IMG/VR virus record: IMGVR_UViG_3300009193_000003 | Span: 1 to 40,812 of that record | From: a virus | Taxonomy: Duplodnaviria > Caudoviricetes | Length of the DNA stretch: 40,812 nt | Direction: 5' to 3' (one strand) | Position numbers and translations under genes: made by a program | Notes under the pieces: model-generated | The model's database searches: none | Told to the model about the DNA's origin: nothing | The model's input: only the letters and a program-made list of their open reading frames with translations | Part shown: positions 1-40,812 of the stretch, in pieces | Layout: every line of letters starts with the position of its first letter | How positions within the stretch are numbered: position 1 is the first letter of the stretch

Positions 1-123
1 AAATTAAACACTGGTTTCCTTAGTCATTTTTTTCTGAGTCGGTTGATGGGGATACCAGTAAACGCTTAACCTCTCGACTTGGGTTTAATATTATACTAAC
101 TGAATTATATTGCAAGTATTAAT
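1..123. repeat. Terminal direct repeat, copy 1 (circularisation overlap)
   Basis: 1-123 is identical to 40690-40812. Confidence 0.97.
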
Positions 124-2496: not shown

Positions 2497-2899
2497 GGTC
2501 ATTAGATACGTATGTCATGGATGGGGTTAGCATCTAACTAAGTATCTTTAACCTTTCAATTATACAAATCAGTATTAACATATCATTTCACATCCGTGTT
2601 GGCTGACCAAACCATATAACCATGACTAAACTGTTATTTATCCGCGTATCTAAACGTTAATTTGTATAAAGATAATTCTTGATTGCTTATTTTTAGGCTT
2701 AGCTAGCACTTAGGTTTTTTACGATAACCGATAGAATTCGGCAGATGGAGGCTTTTTGATAGGCAATAAAAAAGGATACTTGGAACATGTAACCCCGTTT
2801 GGCGGAGGGTGTAATCTGACAGAATGACCCATCGAAATTACATGTTCTAAATACCCTTTGCCAGATTTACTTTTCAAACAGCCGCCAAGCTGCAATTAC
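2497..2899 (-). ncRNA. Large structured non-coding RNA element, copy A (leader plus pseudoknotted core)
   Basis: No long ORF; homologous to 22694-23060 with compensatory base changes; promoter TTGAAA (2923-2928) 16 bp from TAAAAT (2901-2906) on the minus strand. Confidence 0.75.
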
Positions 2900-2908
2900 T
2901 ATTTTACA

Positions 2909-3217
2909 CTACTCTCCTTTATTTTCAAGTTTAAGTTTTAAAGATAATATCGCATTAAGCTTATCTGTATAAAACCCCTCCATAGAGATTAATTGATCAA
3001 GAGCGAATGATTCAGCCTGTGATTTTTTAGTAAAAGCTCTTTGCTGAAAATATATTTTTTCCTCGCTAGTTATCCATCCTGAGAATTGCTTAAGATTAAA
3101 CACAACCTCTTGACGATCCCACTTGCCTGACATTACTCTAAACCCCTTTGGCGTTTTATTTACTAACTTATGGGTTTCAATTTCACCAAACGTTGCTGTG
3201 TATATCAATTCACTCAT
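2909..3217 (-). CDS. Hypothetical protein
   Basis: 102 aa ORF coupled to the upstream gene; GGAG SD. Confidence 0.75.
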   Translation of the reverse strand: MSELIYTATFGEIETHKLVNKTPKGFRVMSGKWDRQEVVFNLKQFSGWITSEEKIYFQQRAFTKKSQAESFALDQLISMEGFYTDKLNAILSLKLKLENKGE

Positions 3218-4246: not shown

Positions 4247-4969
4247 ATGAAAGATTTATCAAACCTAGTTAATAACTACAAACCAATTGCCGAACATAAG
4301 CAATCACCAGTTATTGATGATTTCGCTAAAAGCATTATTGATCGAGTATTTGATAACCTAGCCATTATATTTCCTGCATGGAAGCACAATTGGAAAAGTG
4401 ACGATCCGAATCAGCCTGATAAAGTTTTAAAAATGGCTAAGCGCGAATGGACAAAAGCATTTGTTGAAAACGACATTTCTACGTTAGATCAAATTAGCTG
4501 CGGATTCGCTAAAGCTAGGCGCGCTGAAACAGATTTTTTACCTAGTTGCGGAAAGTTTATTTCTTGGTGTGCGCCCGATGCTGAAGATTTAGGATACCCA
4601 AGCGAGCAAAAAGCTATGCGTTCGTGTGTCGCTTATCGCGCCAATGTAAAACTAGGGTTACCAAGCACAGCAAGACCGTTAATAGTTGAGTTGTGCAAGC
4701 GTGTTGATTGGTGGATGATTAATGCTGTTAACTCACAAGCGACACAAGCAAAAGCAGATAAACACTTCAAAGAGGTTTATATTGCGCTGATAGCATCTGA
4801 TTACCGTGAGCCAGAAGAAACCACGCACGAGCGACTAGAGACTAGCGAAGTTACTAAGCAACGAATGAGTCCACAGCAAAAAGAAGATAGCGTACAGCGA
4901 GGATTAGACGCCATGAAAGCGGTTAGAGCTAAGTTAAAAGCTAGTAAGCTAGACAATAAACAACAATAG
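4247..4969 (+). CDS. Lambda P-like replication protein (helicase loader)
   Basis: F..L..IFPAW...AKREWTKAFVENDI..LDQI..G..KAR....FLPSCGKFISWC. Confidence 0.85.
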   Translation: MKDLSNLVNNYKPIAEHKQSPVIDDFAKSIIDRVFDNLAIIFPAWKHNWKSDDPNQPDKVLKMAKREWTKAFVENDISTLDQISCGFAKARRAETDFLPSCGKFISWCAPDAEDLGYPSEQKAMRSCVAYRANVKLGLPSTARPLIVELCKRVDWWMINAVNSQATQAKADKHFKEVYIALIASDYREPEETTHERLETSEVTKQRMSPQQKEDSVQRGLDAMKAVRAKLKASKLDNKQQ

Positions 4970-4985
4970 GAGATATAAGAATGAA
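4957..4985 (+). repeat. 29-bp direct repeat, copy 1 (RBS and start codon)
   Basis: TAAACAACAATAGGAGATATAAGAATGAA, identical at 5898-5926. Confidence 0.95.
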
Positions 4986-5148
4986 AGATTGGGAGCTAAA
5001 AATAATGAATGAAAAGCTAAAAAACAATAGCTATTTAGTTACTTCTGGTCGTGATCTATTTTTATGTAACAAAATAAATGGCGAGTACATTGTTAAAAAT
5101 AAAAATAAAGATGTAATAAAAAACCCTTTAAAGGCTATTAAATTATGA
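4981..5148 (+). CDS. Small hypothetical protein (55 aa, not in ORF track)
   Basis: AGGAG SD; MKDWELKIMNEK...AIKL*; ATGA overlap with the next gene. Confidence 0.65.
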   Translation: MKDWELKIMNEKLKNNSYLVTSGRDLFLCNKINGEYIVKNKNKDVIKNPLKAIKL

Positions 5149-5900
5149 AGCATTATCACGGTGGCCCAATTACGCCAGCATCTTGCGCTATGAAGACTTG
5201 GAAGAACGGTTTTGCTTTTGTTAGTTGGGCGCACACCAGTCAACTACATCTAGCCTTAGATATTAGCCAGGGTGTTGGTATTGATAACGGTGCGTTTACT
5301 TTCTGGAAGTGCAAGCAAGCAACCAATTGGGTTCCATACTATGACTTTGTTAGGGCATTAAAAAACCATCCTAGATTTGATTTTTGTATAATTCCCGATG
5401 TTATTGATGGCGGTGAGATTGAAAATGACAATCTTTTATCAGAATGGCCTGAAGATTTAAAAGGTTTTGGTGTTCCTGTTTGGCACATGAATGAGTCAGA
5501 CGAAAGATTCATAAGGCTATGCAATGACTATGACCGTGTTGCTATCGGATCTTGTGGCGAATATGACGTAACAAAATCTAGAGCTTGCGTATCAAAACTA
5601 AAAGATGTGATAAGGCATGTTGTTGATGAAAGCGGATATCCAATAACTAAGTTGCACATGCTACGGGGTTTAAATAAAAACATATTTAAACACTTGCCTT
5701 TTGCATCAGCTGACAGCACAAACATAGCTAGAAATATTGGTATTGATAAAAATTGGGAAAATGGAAATTACCAACCGAAATCAAAAGAGGTCAGAGCATA
5801 CGTTATGAAAAACAACATTGAATCGGTAAACTCTGCTAGCTCATTAATTTATAATGAATCGACAGATAAAGTAAGTATACAAATGGCTTTTGAAATTTAA
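5145..5900 (+). CDS. Conserved phage protein, possibly a TGT/DpdA-like base-exchange enzyme
   Basis: HYHGGPITP, DNGAF, IPDVI, PVWH, HMLRG and SADSTN motifs; function inferred. Confidence 0.5.
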   Translation: MKHYHGGPITPASCAMKTWKNGFAFVSWAHTSQLHLALDISQGVGIDNGAFTFWKCKQATNWVPYYDFVRALKNHPRFDFCIIPDVIDGGEIENDNLLSEWPEDLKGFGVPVWHMNESDERFIRLCNDYDRVAIGSCGEYDVTKSRACVSKLKDVIRHVVDESGYPITKLHMLRGLNKNIFKHLPFASADSTNIARNIGIDKNWENGNYQPKSKEVRAYVMKNNIESVNSASSLIYNESTDKVSIQMAFEI

Positions 5901-5926
5901 ACAACAATAGGAGATATAAGAATGAA
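5898..5926 (+). repeat. 29-bp direct repeat, copy 2
   Basis: Identical to 4957-4985. Confidence 0.95.
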
Positions 5927-6409: not shown

Positions 6410-7549
6410 ATGCCTAAGTTTATTCAGGAAAAACAAGAGCCATTTAAAAAGATAAAGGTAACGTTTATTGATGGTAGTTATATATTTGTCAGATTTAATT
6501 GCAAGGATGATTATGATCGGTATTCTTTCAGGTGTTTTAAGTTTAATTTTTGCAGTGTAACAGCACAGCGCGGTTTATTTTCAAACGTTACAGAGCAAAA
6601 GATAACAGATAAAACTAAGTCAATATGGTATCCATTTAAGTCACACTGGGGCCTAGCAAAAAACAGATGGCGCACAGATGAAAAAGTAAACCCTAAGTAC
6701 CCTGTTTACATTGTATCAAAAGGCAGGTCTGACAATGGATTGACAACTAAATCACTCGATAAAATGGGCGTGAATCACTATATTGTCGTTGAAGCACATG
6801 AGGCGGCAGAATATAAAGAAAAAACAAATGCAGAAATACTTGTACTCCCATCTAGATATTTAAATGATTACGATACGTGCGATGAATTAGGAAACACAAG
6901 AAGCAAAGGCCCAGGGGCTGCTCGTAATTTCTGCCTAGACCATTCCAAAAATAACGGATTTAATCGCCATTGGGTGATGGATGATAACTTAGATGCTTTT
7001 CATAGGCTGAATGATAATGAGAAATACGAGGTTGAAACAGGAGCGACATTAAGGGCAAGTGAGGATTTTGTTGATCGATACAGTAACGTACCAGTAGCAG
7101 GGCTTAACTATTACTCGTTTTGTAAAAAAACAGACAAAGTGCCACCATTTATAAAAAATACTAGAATTTATTCATGTCTGCTAATTGATAATAATGCAGG
7201 CTATAGGTGGAGAGGAAGATACAACGAAGATACTGACCTTTCATTGCGAGTTTTAAAGGATGGCTTATGCACAATTCAATTCAACGCTTTTCTTTGCGGA
7301 AAGGTTACAACCCAAAGAATGAAAGGCGGAAACACAAAGGAATTTTATGCAGAAGAGGGGACTTTGCCAAAATCACAAATGCTTGCAGATCTTCATCCAG
7401 ATGTTGCAAAAGTTAAATGGATGTTTAATAGATGGCATCACAAGGTTGATTATTCTGAATACAAAAAGAATAAACTTAAATTAATCTCACCGCAAAATGA
7501 TAGTGGCCCAAATAATTACGGCATGAAATTGATAAAGGAACGCGGCTAG
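6410..7549 (+). CDS. TAGT/GREB1-like GT-A DNA glycosyltransferase with an N-terminal accessory domain
   Basis: YPVYIVSKGR, GPGAARNF, HWVMDDN, NTRIYSCLLI, RWRGRYNEDTDLSL, MKGGNT, RWHHKVDY. Confidence 0.75.
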   Translation: MPKFIQEKQEPFKKIKVTFIDGSYIFVRFNCKDDYDRYSFRCFKFNFCSVTAQRGLFSNVTEQKITDKTKSIWYPFKSHWGLAKNRWRTDEKVNPKYPVYIVSKGRSDNGLTTKSLDKMGVNHYIVVEAHEAAEYKEKTNAEILVLPSRYLNDYDTCDELGNTRSKGPGAARNFCLDHSKNNGFNRHWVMDDNLDAFHRLNDNEKYEVETGATLRASEDFVDRYSNVPVAGLNYYSFCKKTDKVPPFIKNTRIYSCLLIDNNAGYRWRGRYNEDTDLSLRVLKDGLCTIQFNAFLCGKVTTQRMKGGNTKEFYAEEGTLPKSQMLADLHPDVAKVKWMFNRWHHKVDYSEYKKNKLKLISPQNDSGPNNYGMKLIKERG

Positions 7550-21472: not shown

Positions 21473-21825
21473 TATTTATTTCTCGCTTGTATAGTGTAAG
21501 TTGCGCTGGCTGCATCTTCGGTTACTCTAATTATTGATACTGGCACACCGTTAAAGGTCATTACCGTGTTATCTGCTCGAACATCTACAGACAATCCTTG
21601 TTTGACCATTTTGATTTTATAGTCACCAACTTGGATTGAGTCGCCTATATCGCCTTTACTGTATTCAATGCGAATGCCTTTTGTTACATCTGATTTTACC
21701 ACAATATTCGATTGTGTGGCATAGTCTGATTCAACTTGCTGCAACAGAACTTCATCACGAAAATCAGCAAAGGTTTTATTGATTAGTTTATCAGCTAAAG
21801 TTTGAAAGCTTGCACGTGTAGCCAT
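21472..21825 (-). CDS. Head closure protein (putative)
   Basis: 117 aa; IQVGDYK; synteny. Confidence 0.65.
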   Translation of the reverse strand: MATRASFQTLADKLINKTFADFRDEVLLQQVESDYATQSNIVVKSDVTKGIRIEYSKGDIGDSIQVGDYKIKMVKQGLSVDVRADNTVMTFNGVPVSIIRVTEDAASATYTIQARNK

Positions 21826-22622
21826 TACACTCTCACTGTTCTATTATCGTTGCCGTTATACTTCATTAGCGGCTTTAAAAATACGTCAGCGGTATCAGTG
21901 CGAATCATTGCGCTAGAACCGCCGGCAAAGTAATCAACTTGCAGCTCACCTAGTTTTTCACTAGCTATATTTTGAGTTTGACCGCTTACAAATAATTCAG
22001 AGTTTGCAGCCTGGAGAGCAAGTTCCATCTGTGCTTTTTTCACGTTTTTATGAATCTTATCAGTACCAACTAATGAATTGTAAACCGACAATCCTCGCCT
22101 TGGAAATGACAATTCTTGCTCACCCTTAACACGACAGCCTTTATACTTACCTTCTTTAGCTGTGATGTACTTCATTGCGATAATTAAAAGTGCCTCCCTA
22201 TCTGGCTGTGTAGCCGGTACGCTTGAACCCTCGATATTCGCATAAGCTTTAAACTCTTCATCAGTAACAAACGAATTGGCATTCTCGACAATCGAACCAT
22301 CTTCGATAATTAACTGAGTACCAATAGCGACAACGATTTTCCCTAAGTTTCCTAGCTCCATTGATGTAATATCAGTGCCGTTAACGCTCAAGGCATCGAA
22401 GCGCTTAATAGTAACGAATACTTTACCGACTTCGCTTGTGCCTGATAAGTTTAATGATAGCTGCTCATCACTATCAACAATAACGACAGTCGGGTCTAAT
22501 AATTTAGTGTAAACCTCGTCACCGAAGTAAACTTTAATATCTGTAGCGGTAGAAAGAAATGCACCACCGAATGTTAAAACGACTAGATTATCTGAGTTTG
22601 ATATAGCTAGATTTTGCGCCAT
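21825..22622 (-). CDS. Head-tail adaptor (DnaT-like family) with an extra N-terminal domain
   Basis: Internal LIIEDGSIVENANSFVT...QELSFPR...VKKAQMELAL...SEKLGELQVDY. Confidence 0.75.
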   Translation of the reverse strand: MAQNLAISNSDNLVVLTFGGAFLSTATDIKVYFGDEVYTKLLDPTVVIVDSDEQLSLNLSGTSEVGKVFVTIKRFDALSVNGTDITSMELGNLGKIVVAIGTQLIIEDGSIVENANSFVTDEEFKAYANIEGSSVPATQPDREALLIIAMKYITAKEGKYKGCRVKGEQELSFPRRGLSVYNSLVGTDKIHKNVKKAQMELALQAANSELFVSGQTQNIASEKLGELQVDYFAGGSSAMIRTDTADVFLKPLMKYNGNDNRTVRV

Positions 22623-22693: not shown

Positions 22694-23060
22694 GGTCATT
22701 AGAGGCGTTAGTCATGGATGGTAGACTAAGCCAGCTTGTAGATTAAACAATATATATCAGTATCAACTATCAATTCACAATCCCTGTTGGCTGACCAAAC
22801 CATATAACCATGACAAAACGTTGTTTATCCGCGCCTCTAAACGTCGATATATATTGAGTTATTACATATTTGCTACTTTAAAAACTTAGCTAGTTATGCG
22901 GATTTGTTACGAAAGTCCGAATTAAATCGGTTGAATAGATGGGAATGCTGGCAATAAAAAAGGCTTAGAGCGCGAATCTGGTCGAGTAGGCTAAATAAAT
23001 AACCTCAGAAACGCTTTCTAAACCTTCTTTGTTACGTGGACTCGACTCCAAACAACGAGG
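22694..23060 (-). ncRNA. Large structured non-coding RNA element, copy B
   Basis: Homologue of 2497-2899 with a 30-nt identical core; extended -10 TGATAAAAT at 23063-23071. Confidence 0.75.
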
Positions 23061-23108
23061 TTATTTTATCATTAATAACTATTAAAAGTAAATATAGAAA
23101 TTAAATAG

Positions 23109-23163: not shown

Positions 23164-23202
23164 AGAGTTACGAAACAACCAATCAAAACAAGAGAGAATA
23201 TT

Positions 23203-23403
23203 ATGACTACATTAACAGATACTCAAGAAAGCAAAATATACACAATTAACCAAGAAATTATTGATATCGTAGGTGGTAGCGATAAAGAAGCTTTTAATGA
23301 GTTGATGGCATCAAGAAACCCGTTGAGCGCGATAAAACACGCATACAAAATGACATGTAAAATTCGCAATGTAAAAATCAACAATTACTTTCTGGATCTA
23401 TAA
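23203..23403 (+). CDS. Hypothetical protein (moron island 1)
   Basis: AGAGAG SD; 66 aa. Confidence 0.7.
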   Translation: MTTLTDTQESKIYTINQEIIDIVGGSDKEAFNELMASRNPLSAIKHAYKMTCKIRNVKINNYFLDL

Positions 23404-23591
23404 TGACAGCAAGCAAGCAAGCTAAAGAGTTAGGCTTAAAATCCCTGACTCAAGTTAGTGAGCTAACAGGGCAGAGCTTACAGACTTTAACTAATTGGTA
23501 TAACGATAAGTCAGAGCTATTCGAAGTGGTTTTGTTAGGCTGTGTGGTTAAGCATGATTCAATGGAAAAGCAGATTAAGGAGAGTAAGTGA
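23403..23591 (+). CDS. Small HTH regulator
   Basis: GLKSLTQVSELTGQSLQTLTNWY. Confidence 0.75.
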   Translation: MTASKQAKELGLKSLTQVSELTGQSLQTLTNWYNDKSELFEVVLLGCVVKHDSMEKQIKESK

Positions 23592-23833
23592 TGAGTGAGT
23601 TAAAAACAGTTGGCGCAAGATTGGACGTGGAAATATTTGTACATTGCCCTGAGTGTAATTACATGATCGATCTATTAAACGAAAGAGAGACCAATGGTGT
23701 TATGCACAACGATGATGGTGAGCTTCTTCGTCAAGTATGGCCTAGAAATGGCAGTCATGATGATTTCGAGTGCGAAGAAGTTACCTGTACCGAATGCAAA
23801 ACGGAATTTAACGTGAAAACATTAGAGTGGTAA
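23588..23833 (+). CDS. Zn-ribbon protein
   Basis: CPEC...CTEC. Confidence 0.75.
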   Translation: MMSELKTVGARLDVEIFVHCPECNYMIDLLNERETNGVMHNDDGELLRQVWPRNGSHDDFECEEVTCTECKTEFNVKTLEW

Positions 23834-23859
23834 TGAAGTTTAAAATCAAATGGTAACCA

Positions 23860-24033
23860 ATGCGAAAACTAAGAAACTTTAGATGCAGTAAATCAAACAT
23901 AGTATTCGAGCGCTTTGTTAATGACGATACGGGCGAGTTAGAATGCAAGTGCGGTGCAATAGCTAATCGTACACTTAGCGCACCTAAATGCTTTAGTAAC
24001 ACTACGGGTAAAAGCCCTAGTTGTAAGTCATAG
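23860..24033 (+). CDS. FmdB-like Zn-ribbon protein (57 aa, not in ORF track)
   Basis: MRKLRNFRCSKSNIVFERFV...ECKCGAIANRTLSAP. Confidence 0.6.
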   Translation: MRKLRNFRCSKSNIVFERFVNDDTGELECKCGAIANRTLSAPKCFSNTTGKSPSCKS

Positions 24034-24045
24034 CCCATACGCAAT

Positions 24046-24075
24046 AAAAAACCCACGTTTTACTGTGGGCTTTTC
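24046..24075. terminator. Bidirectional intrinsic terminator
   Basis: AAAAAACCCAC-gttttact-GTGGGCTTTT between convergent genes. Confidence 0.75.
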
Positions 24076-26546: not shown

Positions 26547-27374
26547 ATGAGTAAATTAAAAACGGTCTGGGATGCAGTAAATGAGTTACGTGGCGATTTG
26601 AACAACGCTGCTCGCGCAGATACACAAACGTACCTTAAGTTTTCACTGGTTACCCATACTTGGCTATGTAGTGCCTCTTCGATAGCAAATCACTCTTACG
26701 AGGACGTTTGCACTATCGCTGAATTCAACGCACTAGTAGATAGTATGTCTCGTCATGCAGGAGATGAGCTTTACGAAAGATACGTCAGAGTAGCTAAAAC
26801 GCCATTAAAAAAGGAATCTGAAGTGGATTACACGCCAGAAGAGTTCTGGAAAGATGCGCCAGAGGGTGCTACACATCATTGCGGTGCACACAACGAATTT
26901 AGCGAGGTTTGGATAAAAGACCTAAAAGAAGATAGCTACTCATTTCGTGTTGTTGGTAGTCTTTATGCGTCTGACGAGTGGAGGTGTACAAACCCTATAG
27001 TGCGTGATGAATTAAAATATCTAACGCCACGACCACAACCTAAACCAGTAAAGCAAGTATACACACAGGCTATGGCTGATAACGGCGAGTTGCCTAAAGT
27101 TGGTATGAAGTGCTTATTTAAAATGAATGGAGAATATAAGACGATTACTGTTTTATATAACTCGCAAGAAGTCATGGTTTTTAGCTATACCTTTGATGGG
27201 GTGATGGTTGAAGATGCAAGGGTTAAGTCATTTAATAATATCGACATTAAACCAATCGATCAACGCACAAAGAAAGAAAAGGCTATTGATGAAATTGAGA
27301 GCGAGCTTTCTAAAATTGCTTATTCAACTCGGTCAGCACTTGAATTAGCTTATGATGAATGGGTAGGTGAGTAA
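26547..27374 (+). CDS. Mosaic phage hypothetical protein
   Basis: AGGAG SD; WKDAPEGATH and GELPKVGMKC modules. Confidence 0.8.
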   Translation: MSKLKTVWDAVNELRGDLNNAARADTQTYLKFSLVTHTWLCSASSIANHSYEDVCTIAEFNALVDSMSRHAGDELYERYVRVAKTPLKKESEVDYTPEEFWKDAPEGATHHCGAHNEFSEVWIKDLKEDSYSFRVVGSLYASDEWRCTNPIVRDELKYLTPRPQPKPVKQVYTQAMADNGELPKVGMKCLFKMNGEYKTITVLYNSQEVMVFSYTFDGVMVEDARVKSFNNIDIKPIDQRTKKEKAIDEIESELSKIAYSTRSALELAYDEWVGE

Positions 27375-40551: not shown

Positions 40552-40776
40552 TAGTCTGTATAGTGAAATGAGCTATTAATGGCTGTTTGCGCTTAGGGCT
40601 GTTGATTCAGCCTACCTTTACAACTGGCTTCTTCATTTTGCCAGTAACCAAGATTCGAAAACTAACTCACTTCACTTATACAGACTATAAAATTAAACAC
40701 TGGTTTCCTTAGTCATTTTTTTCTGAGTCGGTTGATGGGGATACCAGTAAACGCTTAACCTCTCGACTTGGGTTTA
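40552..40776 (-). ncRNA. Structured leader of the recombination operon (multibranch fold plus hairpin leader)
   Basis: TAGTCTGTATA-GTGAA / TTCAC-T-TATACAGACTA closing stem encloses three hairpins. Confidence 0.5.
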
Positions 40777-40812
40777 ATATTATACTAACTGAATTATATT
40801 GCAAGTATTAAT
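40690..40812. repeat. Terminal direct repeat, copy 2
   Basis: Identical to 1-123. Confidence 0.97.

What the first reader, a model, noticed from the sequence alone, without database searches (positions are those of the whole stretch)
2497..2775. Unassigned large pseudoknotted RNA present in two diverged, covarying copies (core, copy A)
Seen: 2497-2775 aligns with 22694-22963, including a 30-nt identical block TGTTGGCTGACCAAACCATATAACCATGAC (2597-2626 and 22785-22814). Pairings persist while sequence changes. P1 is TTAGATACG/CGTATCTAA (2502-2510/2645-2653) versus TTAGAGGCG/CGCCTCTAA (22699-22707/22832-22840), two compensatory changes. A helix crossing P1 is TTATACAAAT/ATTTGTATAA (2560-2569/2660-2669) versus CAATATATATC/GATATATATTG (22748-22758/22846-22856). 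GTCATGG/CCATGAC and the pseudoknot GGTCA/TGACC are invariant. A long-range CTAAG/CTTAG helix extends only through G-U pairs on the minus strand, which fixes polarity. CCGA..TCGG and TTACGA-loop hairpins are also kept. Neither copy has a long ORF. It does not resemble tRNA, tmRNA, a CRISPR array or a group I/II intron by eye. Inference: a compact tertiary-structured ncRNA (ribozyme, protein scaffold/sponge or replication primer). This is the best candidate for an undescribed system here.
Basis: partly seen in the sequence, partly recalled or inferred. Interest (0 to 1): 0.92.

Follow-up and report, generated by a model that had tools for sequence, protein, structure and literature searches.

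The report
Swappable knotted RNA cassette of phages
This marine phage carries two copies of an uncatalogued, predicted knotted RNA whose base pairs are kept by matching changes in dozens of related phages; it sits in a promoter-and-tRNA cassette whose RNA cargo differs between sister phages, and it likely works as a protein-free RNA tool aimed at the host, which is untested.

Summary
The two copies are real and belong to an RNA family with no Rfam match. Its 49 distinct cores come from marine phage contigs and from Vibrio and Pseudoalteromonas phage isolates. On the minus strand the ~175-nt core folds into four crossing helices plus an inner pseudoknot: 95.6% of cells are paired and 24 of 41 pairs show compensatory change.

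The unit is larger than reported (A 2893-2497, B 23056-22694). It runs: promoter-like site, kissing-loop leader with U-run, a slot that often holds tRNAs, a small pseudoknot, then the core. The first bases pair with those before the pseudoknot in 28 of 28 loci.

Sister Vibrio breoganii phages share leader and flanks at 86-95% identity but swap the core for a divergent version with the same four helices, or for another RNA. There is no partner protein and no fixed downstream gene.

Best reading (0.4): a stable, trans-acting RNA that binds a host factor. Ribozyme, cis-element and RNA-cage readings remain open. Transcription is not shown.

The parts
2901..2928 (-). Copy A sigma70-like promoter (-35 2928-2923, -10 2906-2901)
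   Evidence: 10 of 12; the scan alone is not above chance; -10-like hexamer before the leader in 31 of 36 loci by pattern
2762..2893 (-). Copy A leader: 5' hairpin whose loop is complementary to the bulge at 2805-2799 of a long stem ending in a U-run (2775-2762)
   Evidence: own complement of 7 nt or more in 22 of 31 leaders, against 6.8% of cross pairs
2741..2744 (-). 3' strand of closing helix P0, pairs with the first bases of the leader (2893-2890); encloses the leader and the tRNA slot (empty in this copy)
   Evidence: 28 of 28 loci, against 7.9% of 406 cross-family pairs
2713..2740 (-). Small H-type pseudoknot module (2739:2723 pair varies G-C/A-U), with an alternative CCGA/UCGG hairpin
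   Evidence: E 0.13, not significant alone; present in 28 of 35 loci with a leader
2497..2670 (-). Copy A core. Helices d (2669-2660:2569-2560), f0/f (2655-2645:2498-2510), g (2636-2633:2579-2576), h (2626-2620:2520-2514). Inner pseudoknot S1 (2614-2612:2602-2600), S2 (2607-2604:2585-2582). GGA-loop hairpin (2599-2590), variable hairpin (2553-2525). Conserved linkers GAUAAA (2642-2637) and AUAC (2575-2572)
23063..23092 (-). Copy B sigma70-like promoter with extended -10
22950..23056 (-). Copy B leader (second leader family); its 5' loop is complementary to 22987-22981; U-run 22963-22950
22898..22933 (-). Copy B P0 3' strand (22933-22930) and pseudoknot module
22694..22857 (-). Copy B core, same helices as A, from a different clade of the family

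Best explanation
The element is the conserved 3' domain of a predicted 370-700-nt phage RNA cassette, folded by covariation into a four-helix double pseudoknot, that is likely cut out as a stable RNA and likely acts in trans by binding and tying up a host factor, probably in defence or translation. Shown: the helices; the promoter-like site, leader and closing helix; tRNAs in the linker of some members; the absence of a shared neighbouring protein; and different cargo RNAs at the same site in sister phages. Inferred: transcription from the sigma70-like promoter, read-through of the U-run, release by host RNases at the A/U-rich stretches on either side of the core, and the protein target. The swapping of cargo among phages of one host species is read as a sign of host-phage conflict.
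For: Structure is conserved while sequence changes: 41 pairs, 95.6% of cells paired, 24 with two-sided change, slid controls 29-40%; 5 pairs at E<0.05 in a tree-null G-test. A divergent subtype keeps d, f, g, h and the linker motifs with new sequences. A descriptor parses 12 of the 13 type I/II regions tested, 0 of 680 shuffles, and only the two copies in the whole window. Five V. breoganii phages match 1.131.O at 89-95% over leader plus pseudoknot; three resume at the same 3' edge and one (other cargo) about 50 nt further on (86-90%), with the core replaced. The cassette has its own promoter-like site and a leader in 35 of 50 loci, most of the rest being cut short. tRNAs sit in the linker: Trp/Arg/Gly in phage Seahorse, Arg in L232, a degenerate one in L256, and tRNA-sized stems in 15 of 35. 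No neighbouring protein family occurs in more than 6 of 49 loci, and no window ORF in more than 6 of 10 other carrier genomes. Downstream genes are unrelated; L260 is followed by a terminator-like hairpin and a convergent gene, L261 by a convergent gene. A relative with the same adaptor gene (66%) lacks the RNA, so it is accessory.
Against: No direct evidence of transcription, processing or a binding partner; the RNA-seq contigs were uninformative. Most loci do have a co-directional gene, 23 of 49 within 45 nt, and no terminator follows either copy; both fit a cis role. Conserved junction bases in a double pseudoknot fit a ribozyme equally well. The type I/type II swap may be plain recombination between diverged alleles. 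The one recognisable protein-binding look-alike, a GGA-loop hairpin, occurs once and is not kept at that place in type II.
Confidence: 0.4

Rival explanations
1. The core is a new ribozyme class that cuts itself, or the cassette transcript, to release tRNAs and leader or to give the downstream mRNA a protected 5' end.
For: The strand order d5 f5 g5 h5 ... g3 d3 ... h3 f3 is a nested double pseudoknot, as in HDV-like ribozymes (topology recalled). Short invariant linkers survive across two subtypes while the periphery changes. It lies next to tRNAs, as theta ribozymes do (PMC10879173, passages).
Against: No conserved C in the linker before the last helix. The core is not within 5 nt of a tRNA end; the pseudoknot module and spacer intervene. 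No Rfam ribozyme hit. No joint in four RNA assemblies (weak).
Confidence: 0.2
2. It acts in cis on the genes behind it, as a ribosome-recruiting or stabilising 5' structure or a put-like antiterminator (put recalled).
For: It always lies behind a promoter-like site. A co-directional start codon lies within 45 nt in 23 of 49 loci. No terminator follows it.
Against: Downstream genes are unrelated. The distance to the start runs from 24 to 143 nt, and many structural genes have their own -10 box in the gap. L260 and L261 have convergent genes. Nine other carrier genomes hold a single copy at varied sites.
Confidence: 0.17
3. It self-assembles into an RNA-only oligomer or cage like GOLLD and ROOL, some covarying contacts being between molecules.
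For: The layout resembles GOLLD as described in PMC12286853 (section 7 and passages): conserved 3' domain, variable 5' domain, tRNAs in the linker, kissing loops. Leader families are mixed across the core tree.
Against: It is about half the size, with no match to the GOLLD or ROOL models at E<=10 in 5 carrier genomes (nothing rang in the ROOL control either). L261 lacks the leader altogether.
Confidence: 0.13
4. The cassette is a C4/P4-CI-type antisense immunity switch and the core is a passenger.
For: The leader has variable loops complementary to its own 5' segment, as described for C4 and CI (PMC5320573, PMC4825925, passages).
Against: No C4 model match. The complementary word recurs downstream in 4 of 32 loci against 16% for cross pairs, so there is no second target within 1.5 kb. 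The core is more conserved than the leader.
Confidence: 0.05
5. A DNA-level element (single-stranded DNA fold or protein site) that is not used as RNA.
For: Transcription is not shown.
Against: G.U outnumbers A.C 132 to 20 on one strand; promoter-like site, U-run and intact tRNAs all lie on that strand.
Confidence: 0.03

Closest known systems
GOLLD RNA (RF02032) and ROOL RNA (RF03087)
   Same: Large, multi-pseudoknot phage RNAs of unknown function near tRNAs. GOLLD has a conserved 3' and variable 5' domain and sometimes tRNAs in its linker (PMC12286853, section 7 and passages seen).
   Different: No model match; 370-700 nt with a ~175-250-nt core; a fixed promoter/kissing-loop leader; cargo swapped for unrelated RNAs; found in marine gammaproteobacterial phages.
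C4 antisense RNA of P1/P7 (RF01695), P4 CI RNA, IsrK
   Same: The leader has a long stem with variable loops complementary to its own upstream segment and ends at a U-run.
   Different: No model match, no downstream target copy, and it precedes ncRNAs rather than an antirepressor or replication operon.
HDV-like and theta ribozymes
   Same: Nested double-pseudoknot strand order (recalled); phage tRNA context (PMC10879173, passages seen).
   Different: Two to three times larger; h is 7-9 bp; no conserved C in the last linker; not abutting the tRNA 3' end.
tmRNA (RF00023) pseudoknot 1
   Same: The small upstream pseudoknot has the same H-type layout and some shared letters; 12 of 14 weak hits fell on pk1.
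   Different: Not significant (best E 0.02 one way, 2.2 the other); no tRNA-like domain, no conserved tag frame, no core match at E<=100.
T4 species 1/2 and T5 stable RNAs of phage tRNA clusters (recalled; also named in earlier scan notes)
   Same: Function-unknown structured RNAs co-transcribed with phage tRNAs.
   Different: Not compared by sequence here; this one has a defined, covarying double-pseudoknot fold and its own cassette.

Membership tests
GOLLD | Match to RF02032 (gathering 150 bits) | tested here: not met
   0 of 5 carrier genomes at E<=10
GOLLD | Conserved 3' domain, variable 5' domain, tRNAs in the linker | tested here: met
   this is a 'works like' feature only
GOLLD/ROOL | Homo-oligomeric RNA cage | not testable with these tools
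   needs biophysics or cryo-EM
ROOL | Match to RF03087 | tested here: not met
   0 of 5 (no control genome rang, so sensitivity is unproven); no hit
C4 / P4 CI antisense systems | Match to RF01695 | tested here: not met
   0 of 5 at E<=10
C4 / P4 CI antisense systems | Loops complementary to an upstream site of the same transcript | tested here: met
   22 of 31 with 7 nt or more, against 6.8% of cross pairs
C4 / P4 CI antisense systems | Second target site downstream | tested here: not met
   4 of 32 against 16% background within up to 1.5 kb
tmRNA | tRNA-like domain with acceptor stem and T arm | tested here: not met
   ARAGORN 0 genes; 0 tmRNA in 49 loci
tmRNA | pk1 followed by a tag reading frame | tested here: inconclusive
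   pk1-like module present but the likeness is not significant; frames behind it differ in length between members (read by eye)
HDV-like / theta ribozymes | Nested double pseudoknot | tested here: met
   order of d, f, g, h; HDV order recalled
HDV-like / theta ribozymes | Catalytic C first in J4/2 | tested here: not met
   the equivalent linker varies (AUA, UAA, AAA, AGA, GGA and 4-5-nt forms) without a conserved C; feature from PMC10879173
theta ribozymes | Cleavage site within 5 nt of a tRNA 3' end | tested here: not met
   pseudoknot module and spacer lie between tRNA and core
any self-cleaving ribozyme | Self-scission in vitro | not testable with these tools
   bench assay needed
RNase P RNA; group I/II introns | Rfam model match; for introns, interruption of a gene | tested here: not met
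   no match; the element lies between genes behind its own promoter-like site
Csr/Rsm sponge RNAs | Many GGA-loop hairpins (recalled) | tested here: not met
   one such hairpin in type I (GGA in 50 of 50, required by some of my patterns), not kept at that place in type II

The most novel reading that the evidence does not exclude
Marine vibrio- and pseudoalteromonas-phages carry a protein-free plug-in cassette: a fixed promoter, kissing-loop leader and pseudoknot that express interchangeable cargo RNAs (tRNAs and at least three unrelated large folds). The double-pseudoknot RNA is either an RNA counter-defence effector or a new ribozyme class.
Probability: 0.35. Interest if true: 0.9.

Novelty: new variant of a known kind. 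Interest (0 to 1): 0.72.

Why it matters
Large structured phage RNAs near tRNAs (GOLLD, ROOL) still have no known function. This family is smaller, has a fold fixed by covariation across two very divergent subtypes, and occurs in cultured phages of environmental hosts (HS1, HS2, BS5, the V. breoganii phages). Sister phages carry different RNA cargo at the same site, which is a natural swap experiment. If the cargo counters host defence, it would show phages exchanging RNA effectors the way they exchange anti-defence proteins. If it cuts RNA, it is a new ribozyme class.

Tried and rejected
Rfam: no credible match for the window at gathering, for either copy by E-value, for 20 plus 8 type I loci or for 14 divergent loci; only tRNAs scored above gathering.

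tmRNA descent: tested against 31 tmRNAs both ways, not significant. GOLLD, ROOL and C4 models: 0 of 5 genomes each.

Distribution: plasmids gave no match. In bacterial genomes 1 of 18 pattern hits was real, a 39-kb contig in a MAG. A third copy in the window: none above 13 bits. A partner protein: none.

Expression: 19 of 24 listed runs were RNA libraries holding a stretch identical to phage HS2. Four were laid; each holds the stretch inside one long contig with flat depth and no joint. This neither shows transcription nor excludes rare splicing or circles.

My pattern for the inner pseudoknot of type II fitted only 4 of 10 loci and in the wrong register, so that pseudoknot is seen by eye only. 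In four V. breoganii type II loci, L3 and HS1 the descriptor chose an alternative register for f, and in most of them for h too; the register there is unsettled. An alternative GGAU/AUCC pairing in type I is possible but invariant and clashes with h.

Dropped rows: L268 and L275 lacked my anchor, and four cut-off cores were left out of alignment A2; L360 came later and is not in A2.

Literature: 10 searches found no description. The alignment and model supplements of the 10,006-candidate phage RNA survey (PMC10690425; outline, appendix and part of the supplements seen) could not be searched, so a fragment may be listed there.

Full report
Setting. The window is a complete 40.8-kb phage record with direct terminal repeats. 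It encodes a siphovirus-type head and tail and lambdoid replication and recombination genes. Copy A lies among small unknown genes; copy B lies before the head-tail adaptor gene (21825-22622). Neither Rfam nor ARAGORN finds anything in the window.

Observation. The two copies, the 30-nt block and the three long helices are exactly as reported. Their homology is far beyond chance (E 1.6e-29).

Homologues. BLAST of the phage collection found the core between genes in five V. breoganii phage records, Pseudoalteromonas phages BS5 and HS2, and a large series of Vibrio K phages. Pattern scans of viral, metagenome and genome contigs, filtered with a profile, gave 49 distinct cores including the window's two, 45 of them full length; one more came later. 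These patterns required parts of helix h and sometimes the GGA, so invariance there is partly built in. Only 1 of 18 hits in bacterial genomes was real, on a 39-kb contig, and plasmids gave none. The family is thus seen almost only in phages. Copies A and B fall in different clades, with nearest relatives at 96.8% and 98.9% in other phages, so they are separate acquisitions rather than a local duplication. Nine other carriers hold one copy each.

Fold of the core. On the minus strand the order is d5, f5, GAUAAA, g5, h5, inner pseudoknot, g3, AUAC, d3, variable hairpin, h3, f3, UGAC. Over 45 sequences, 95.6% of 1832 cells in 41 pairs are standard pairs and 24 pairs change on both sides; slid controls give 29-40%. 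The structure was drawn from these same sequences, which favours it over the controls. My own G-test with a tree-based null (40 replicates; not R-scape) found 5 pairs at E<0.05: two in d, two in S2 and the pair closing the GGA hairpin. On the 34-sequence extended set, f and g each had a top pair near E 0.1. G.U cells outnumber A.C cells 132 to 20, fixing polarity. CTAAG/CTTAG shows no compensation.

The unit is a cassette. Upstream of both copies is a sigma70-like promoter (such sites alone are no more frequent than in shuffles). Then comes a leader of about 105-145 nt whose 5' hairpin loop is complementary to a bulge of a long stem ending in a U-run (22 of 31 with 7 nt or more, against 6.8% of cross pairs). 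A leader was found in 35 of 50 loci; most of the others are cut short, but L261 lacks it and K30 has another. Behind the U-run is a slot. It is empty in both window copies, holds a tRNA-sized stem in 15 of 35, an intact tRNA-Arg in L232, and three tRNAs in phage Seahorse. A small pseudoknot follows in 28 of 35. The leader's first bases pair with the bases just before that pseudoknot in 28 of 28, against 7.9% across leader families; these are few independent events. In 11 type I genomes the leaders occurred only before a core, and leader families are mixed over the core tree.

Cargo is swapped. Following leader-only BLAST hits showed V. breoganii phages 1.147.O, 1.148.O, 1.233.A and 1.239.O with the same leader and pseudoknot as 1.131.O (89-95%) but a different core. 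Three of them also align again at the same 3' edge; the fourth shows the same tail by eye. This type II core recurs in 35 records (22 over 80% of the query), among them NF, phiV208, 1.003.O, HS1 and HS5, and in Seahorse. It keeps d, f, g and h with new sequences, the A-rich linkers, a short hairpin after d and the tail, and has a longer inner domain. A descriptor written after seeing these sequences parsed 12 of 13 type I/II regions, none of 4 other cargos, 0 of 680 shuffles, and only the two copies in the window. The register of f and h in some type II members is unsettled. Phages 1.167.O and 1.276.O share yet another cargo by eye, 199E37-1 a further one, and 1.061.O a form with large insertions. 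None matches Rfam.

No fixed partner. No neighbouring protein family occurs in more than 6 of 49 loci, and no window ORF in more than 6 of 10 other carriers. A co-directional start lies within 45 nt in 23 of 49 loci; others have their own -10 box in a gap of 65-143 nt, and L260 and L261 face convergent genes. A phage with a 66% identical adaptor gene has no RNA before it.

Expression. Not shown. RNA-library contigs cover the HS2-identical stretch in one piece with no joint, which says nothing about level, ends or strand. A paper on HS2 infection has no occurrence of noncoding, intergenic or sRNA in its main text (PMC7082346, passages).

Mechanism. The steps are: the promoter fires (inferred); some transcripts pass the U-run (inferred); host RNases free tRNAs and the core at A/U-rich flanks (inferred from sequence and from the analogy with C4 processing in PMC5320573); and the knotted core persists and binds a host factor (inferred). 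Own promoter, lack of a partner or fixed target gene, company of tRNAs, accessory status and exchange among phages of one host make a trans-acting effector the best single reading, at 0.4. A ribozyme (0.2), a cis-acting 5' element (0.17) and a GOLLD-like oligomer (0.13) are real rivals.

Relation to known families. It works like GOLLD in layout, its leader like C4/CI in loop complementarity, and its core like HDV-type ribozymes in strand order. It fails a defining test for each and is filed under none. The tmRNA pk1 likeness is not significant.

What was seen of each paper: PMC12286853, section 7 and passages; PMC10690425, outline, appendix and part of the supplements; PMC2864571, PMC5320573, PMC4825925, PMC7082346, PMC13501541 and PMC10879173, passages only. 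put, the Csr site, HDV strand order and T4/T5 stable RNAs are recalled. Ten literature searches found no description, but the alignments of PMC10690425 could not be read. Earlier scan notes hold no look-alike sequence, only analogous RNAs in other phage tRNA clusters.

Verdict. A real, uncatalogued RNA family inside a modular RNA cassette, with function open but directly testable in cultured phages. Interest 0.72.

Noticed in passing
L504:940-1230 (Vibrio phage 1.276.O) and L506:860-1140 (1.167.O): A different, shared structured-RNA candidate fills the cargo slot behind the same leader and pseudoknot; no Rfam match.
   Followed up: partly
L505:950-1280 (Vibrio phage 199E37-1): A further unrelated cargo behind the same leader; no Rfam match.
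   Followed up: partly
L496:1280-1640 (Vibrio phage 1.061.O; also 1.039.O, 1.067.O): Variant with recognisable d, f and g arms by eye and large insertions; not parsed by the descriptor.
   Followed up: partly
window 2713-2741 and 22898-22930 (-): The small pseudoknot module keeps two mutually exclusive pairings (hairpin and pseudoknot) through the same base changes, suggesting a two-state switch.
   Followed up: partly
L071, L082, L092, L224, L236, L257, L284, between U-run and pseudoknot: A long hairpin with fixed arms and a freely variable insert, some with T-loop motifs; pattern found in 9 of 35 loci.
   Followed up: no
window 5145-5900 and 6410-7549 (+): Queuine tRNA-ribosyltransferase-like gene and a TET-associated glycosyltransferase (PF20691) gene, suggesting a DNA-modification module.
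   Followed up: no
window 4957-4985 and 5898-5926: Exact 29-nt direct repeat with a ribosome-binding site and start codon flanking the ribosyltransferase-like gene, a possible insertion scar.
   Followed up: no
window 23200-24056 and 26547-27374: Small genes of unknown function inserted against the direction of the structural operon, one block next to copy B.
   Followed up: no
window 1-123 and 40690-40812: Identical 123-nt terminal repeat; the record is a circularly complete assembly.
   Followed up: yes
L067:1379-1397: A 19-nt stretch in the cassette's promoter region recurs at up to two other places in the laid contigs.
   Followed up: no
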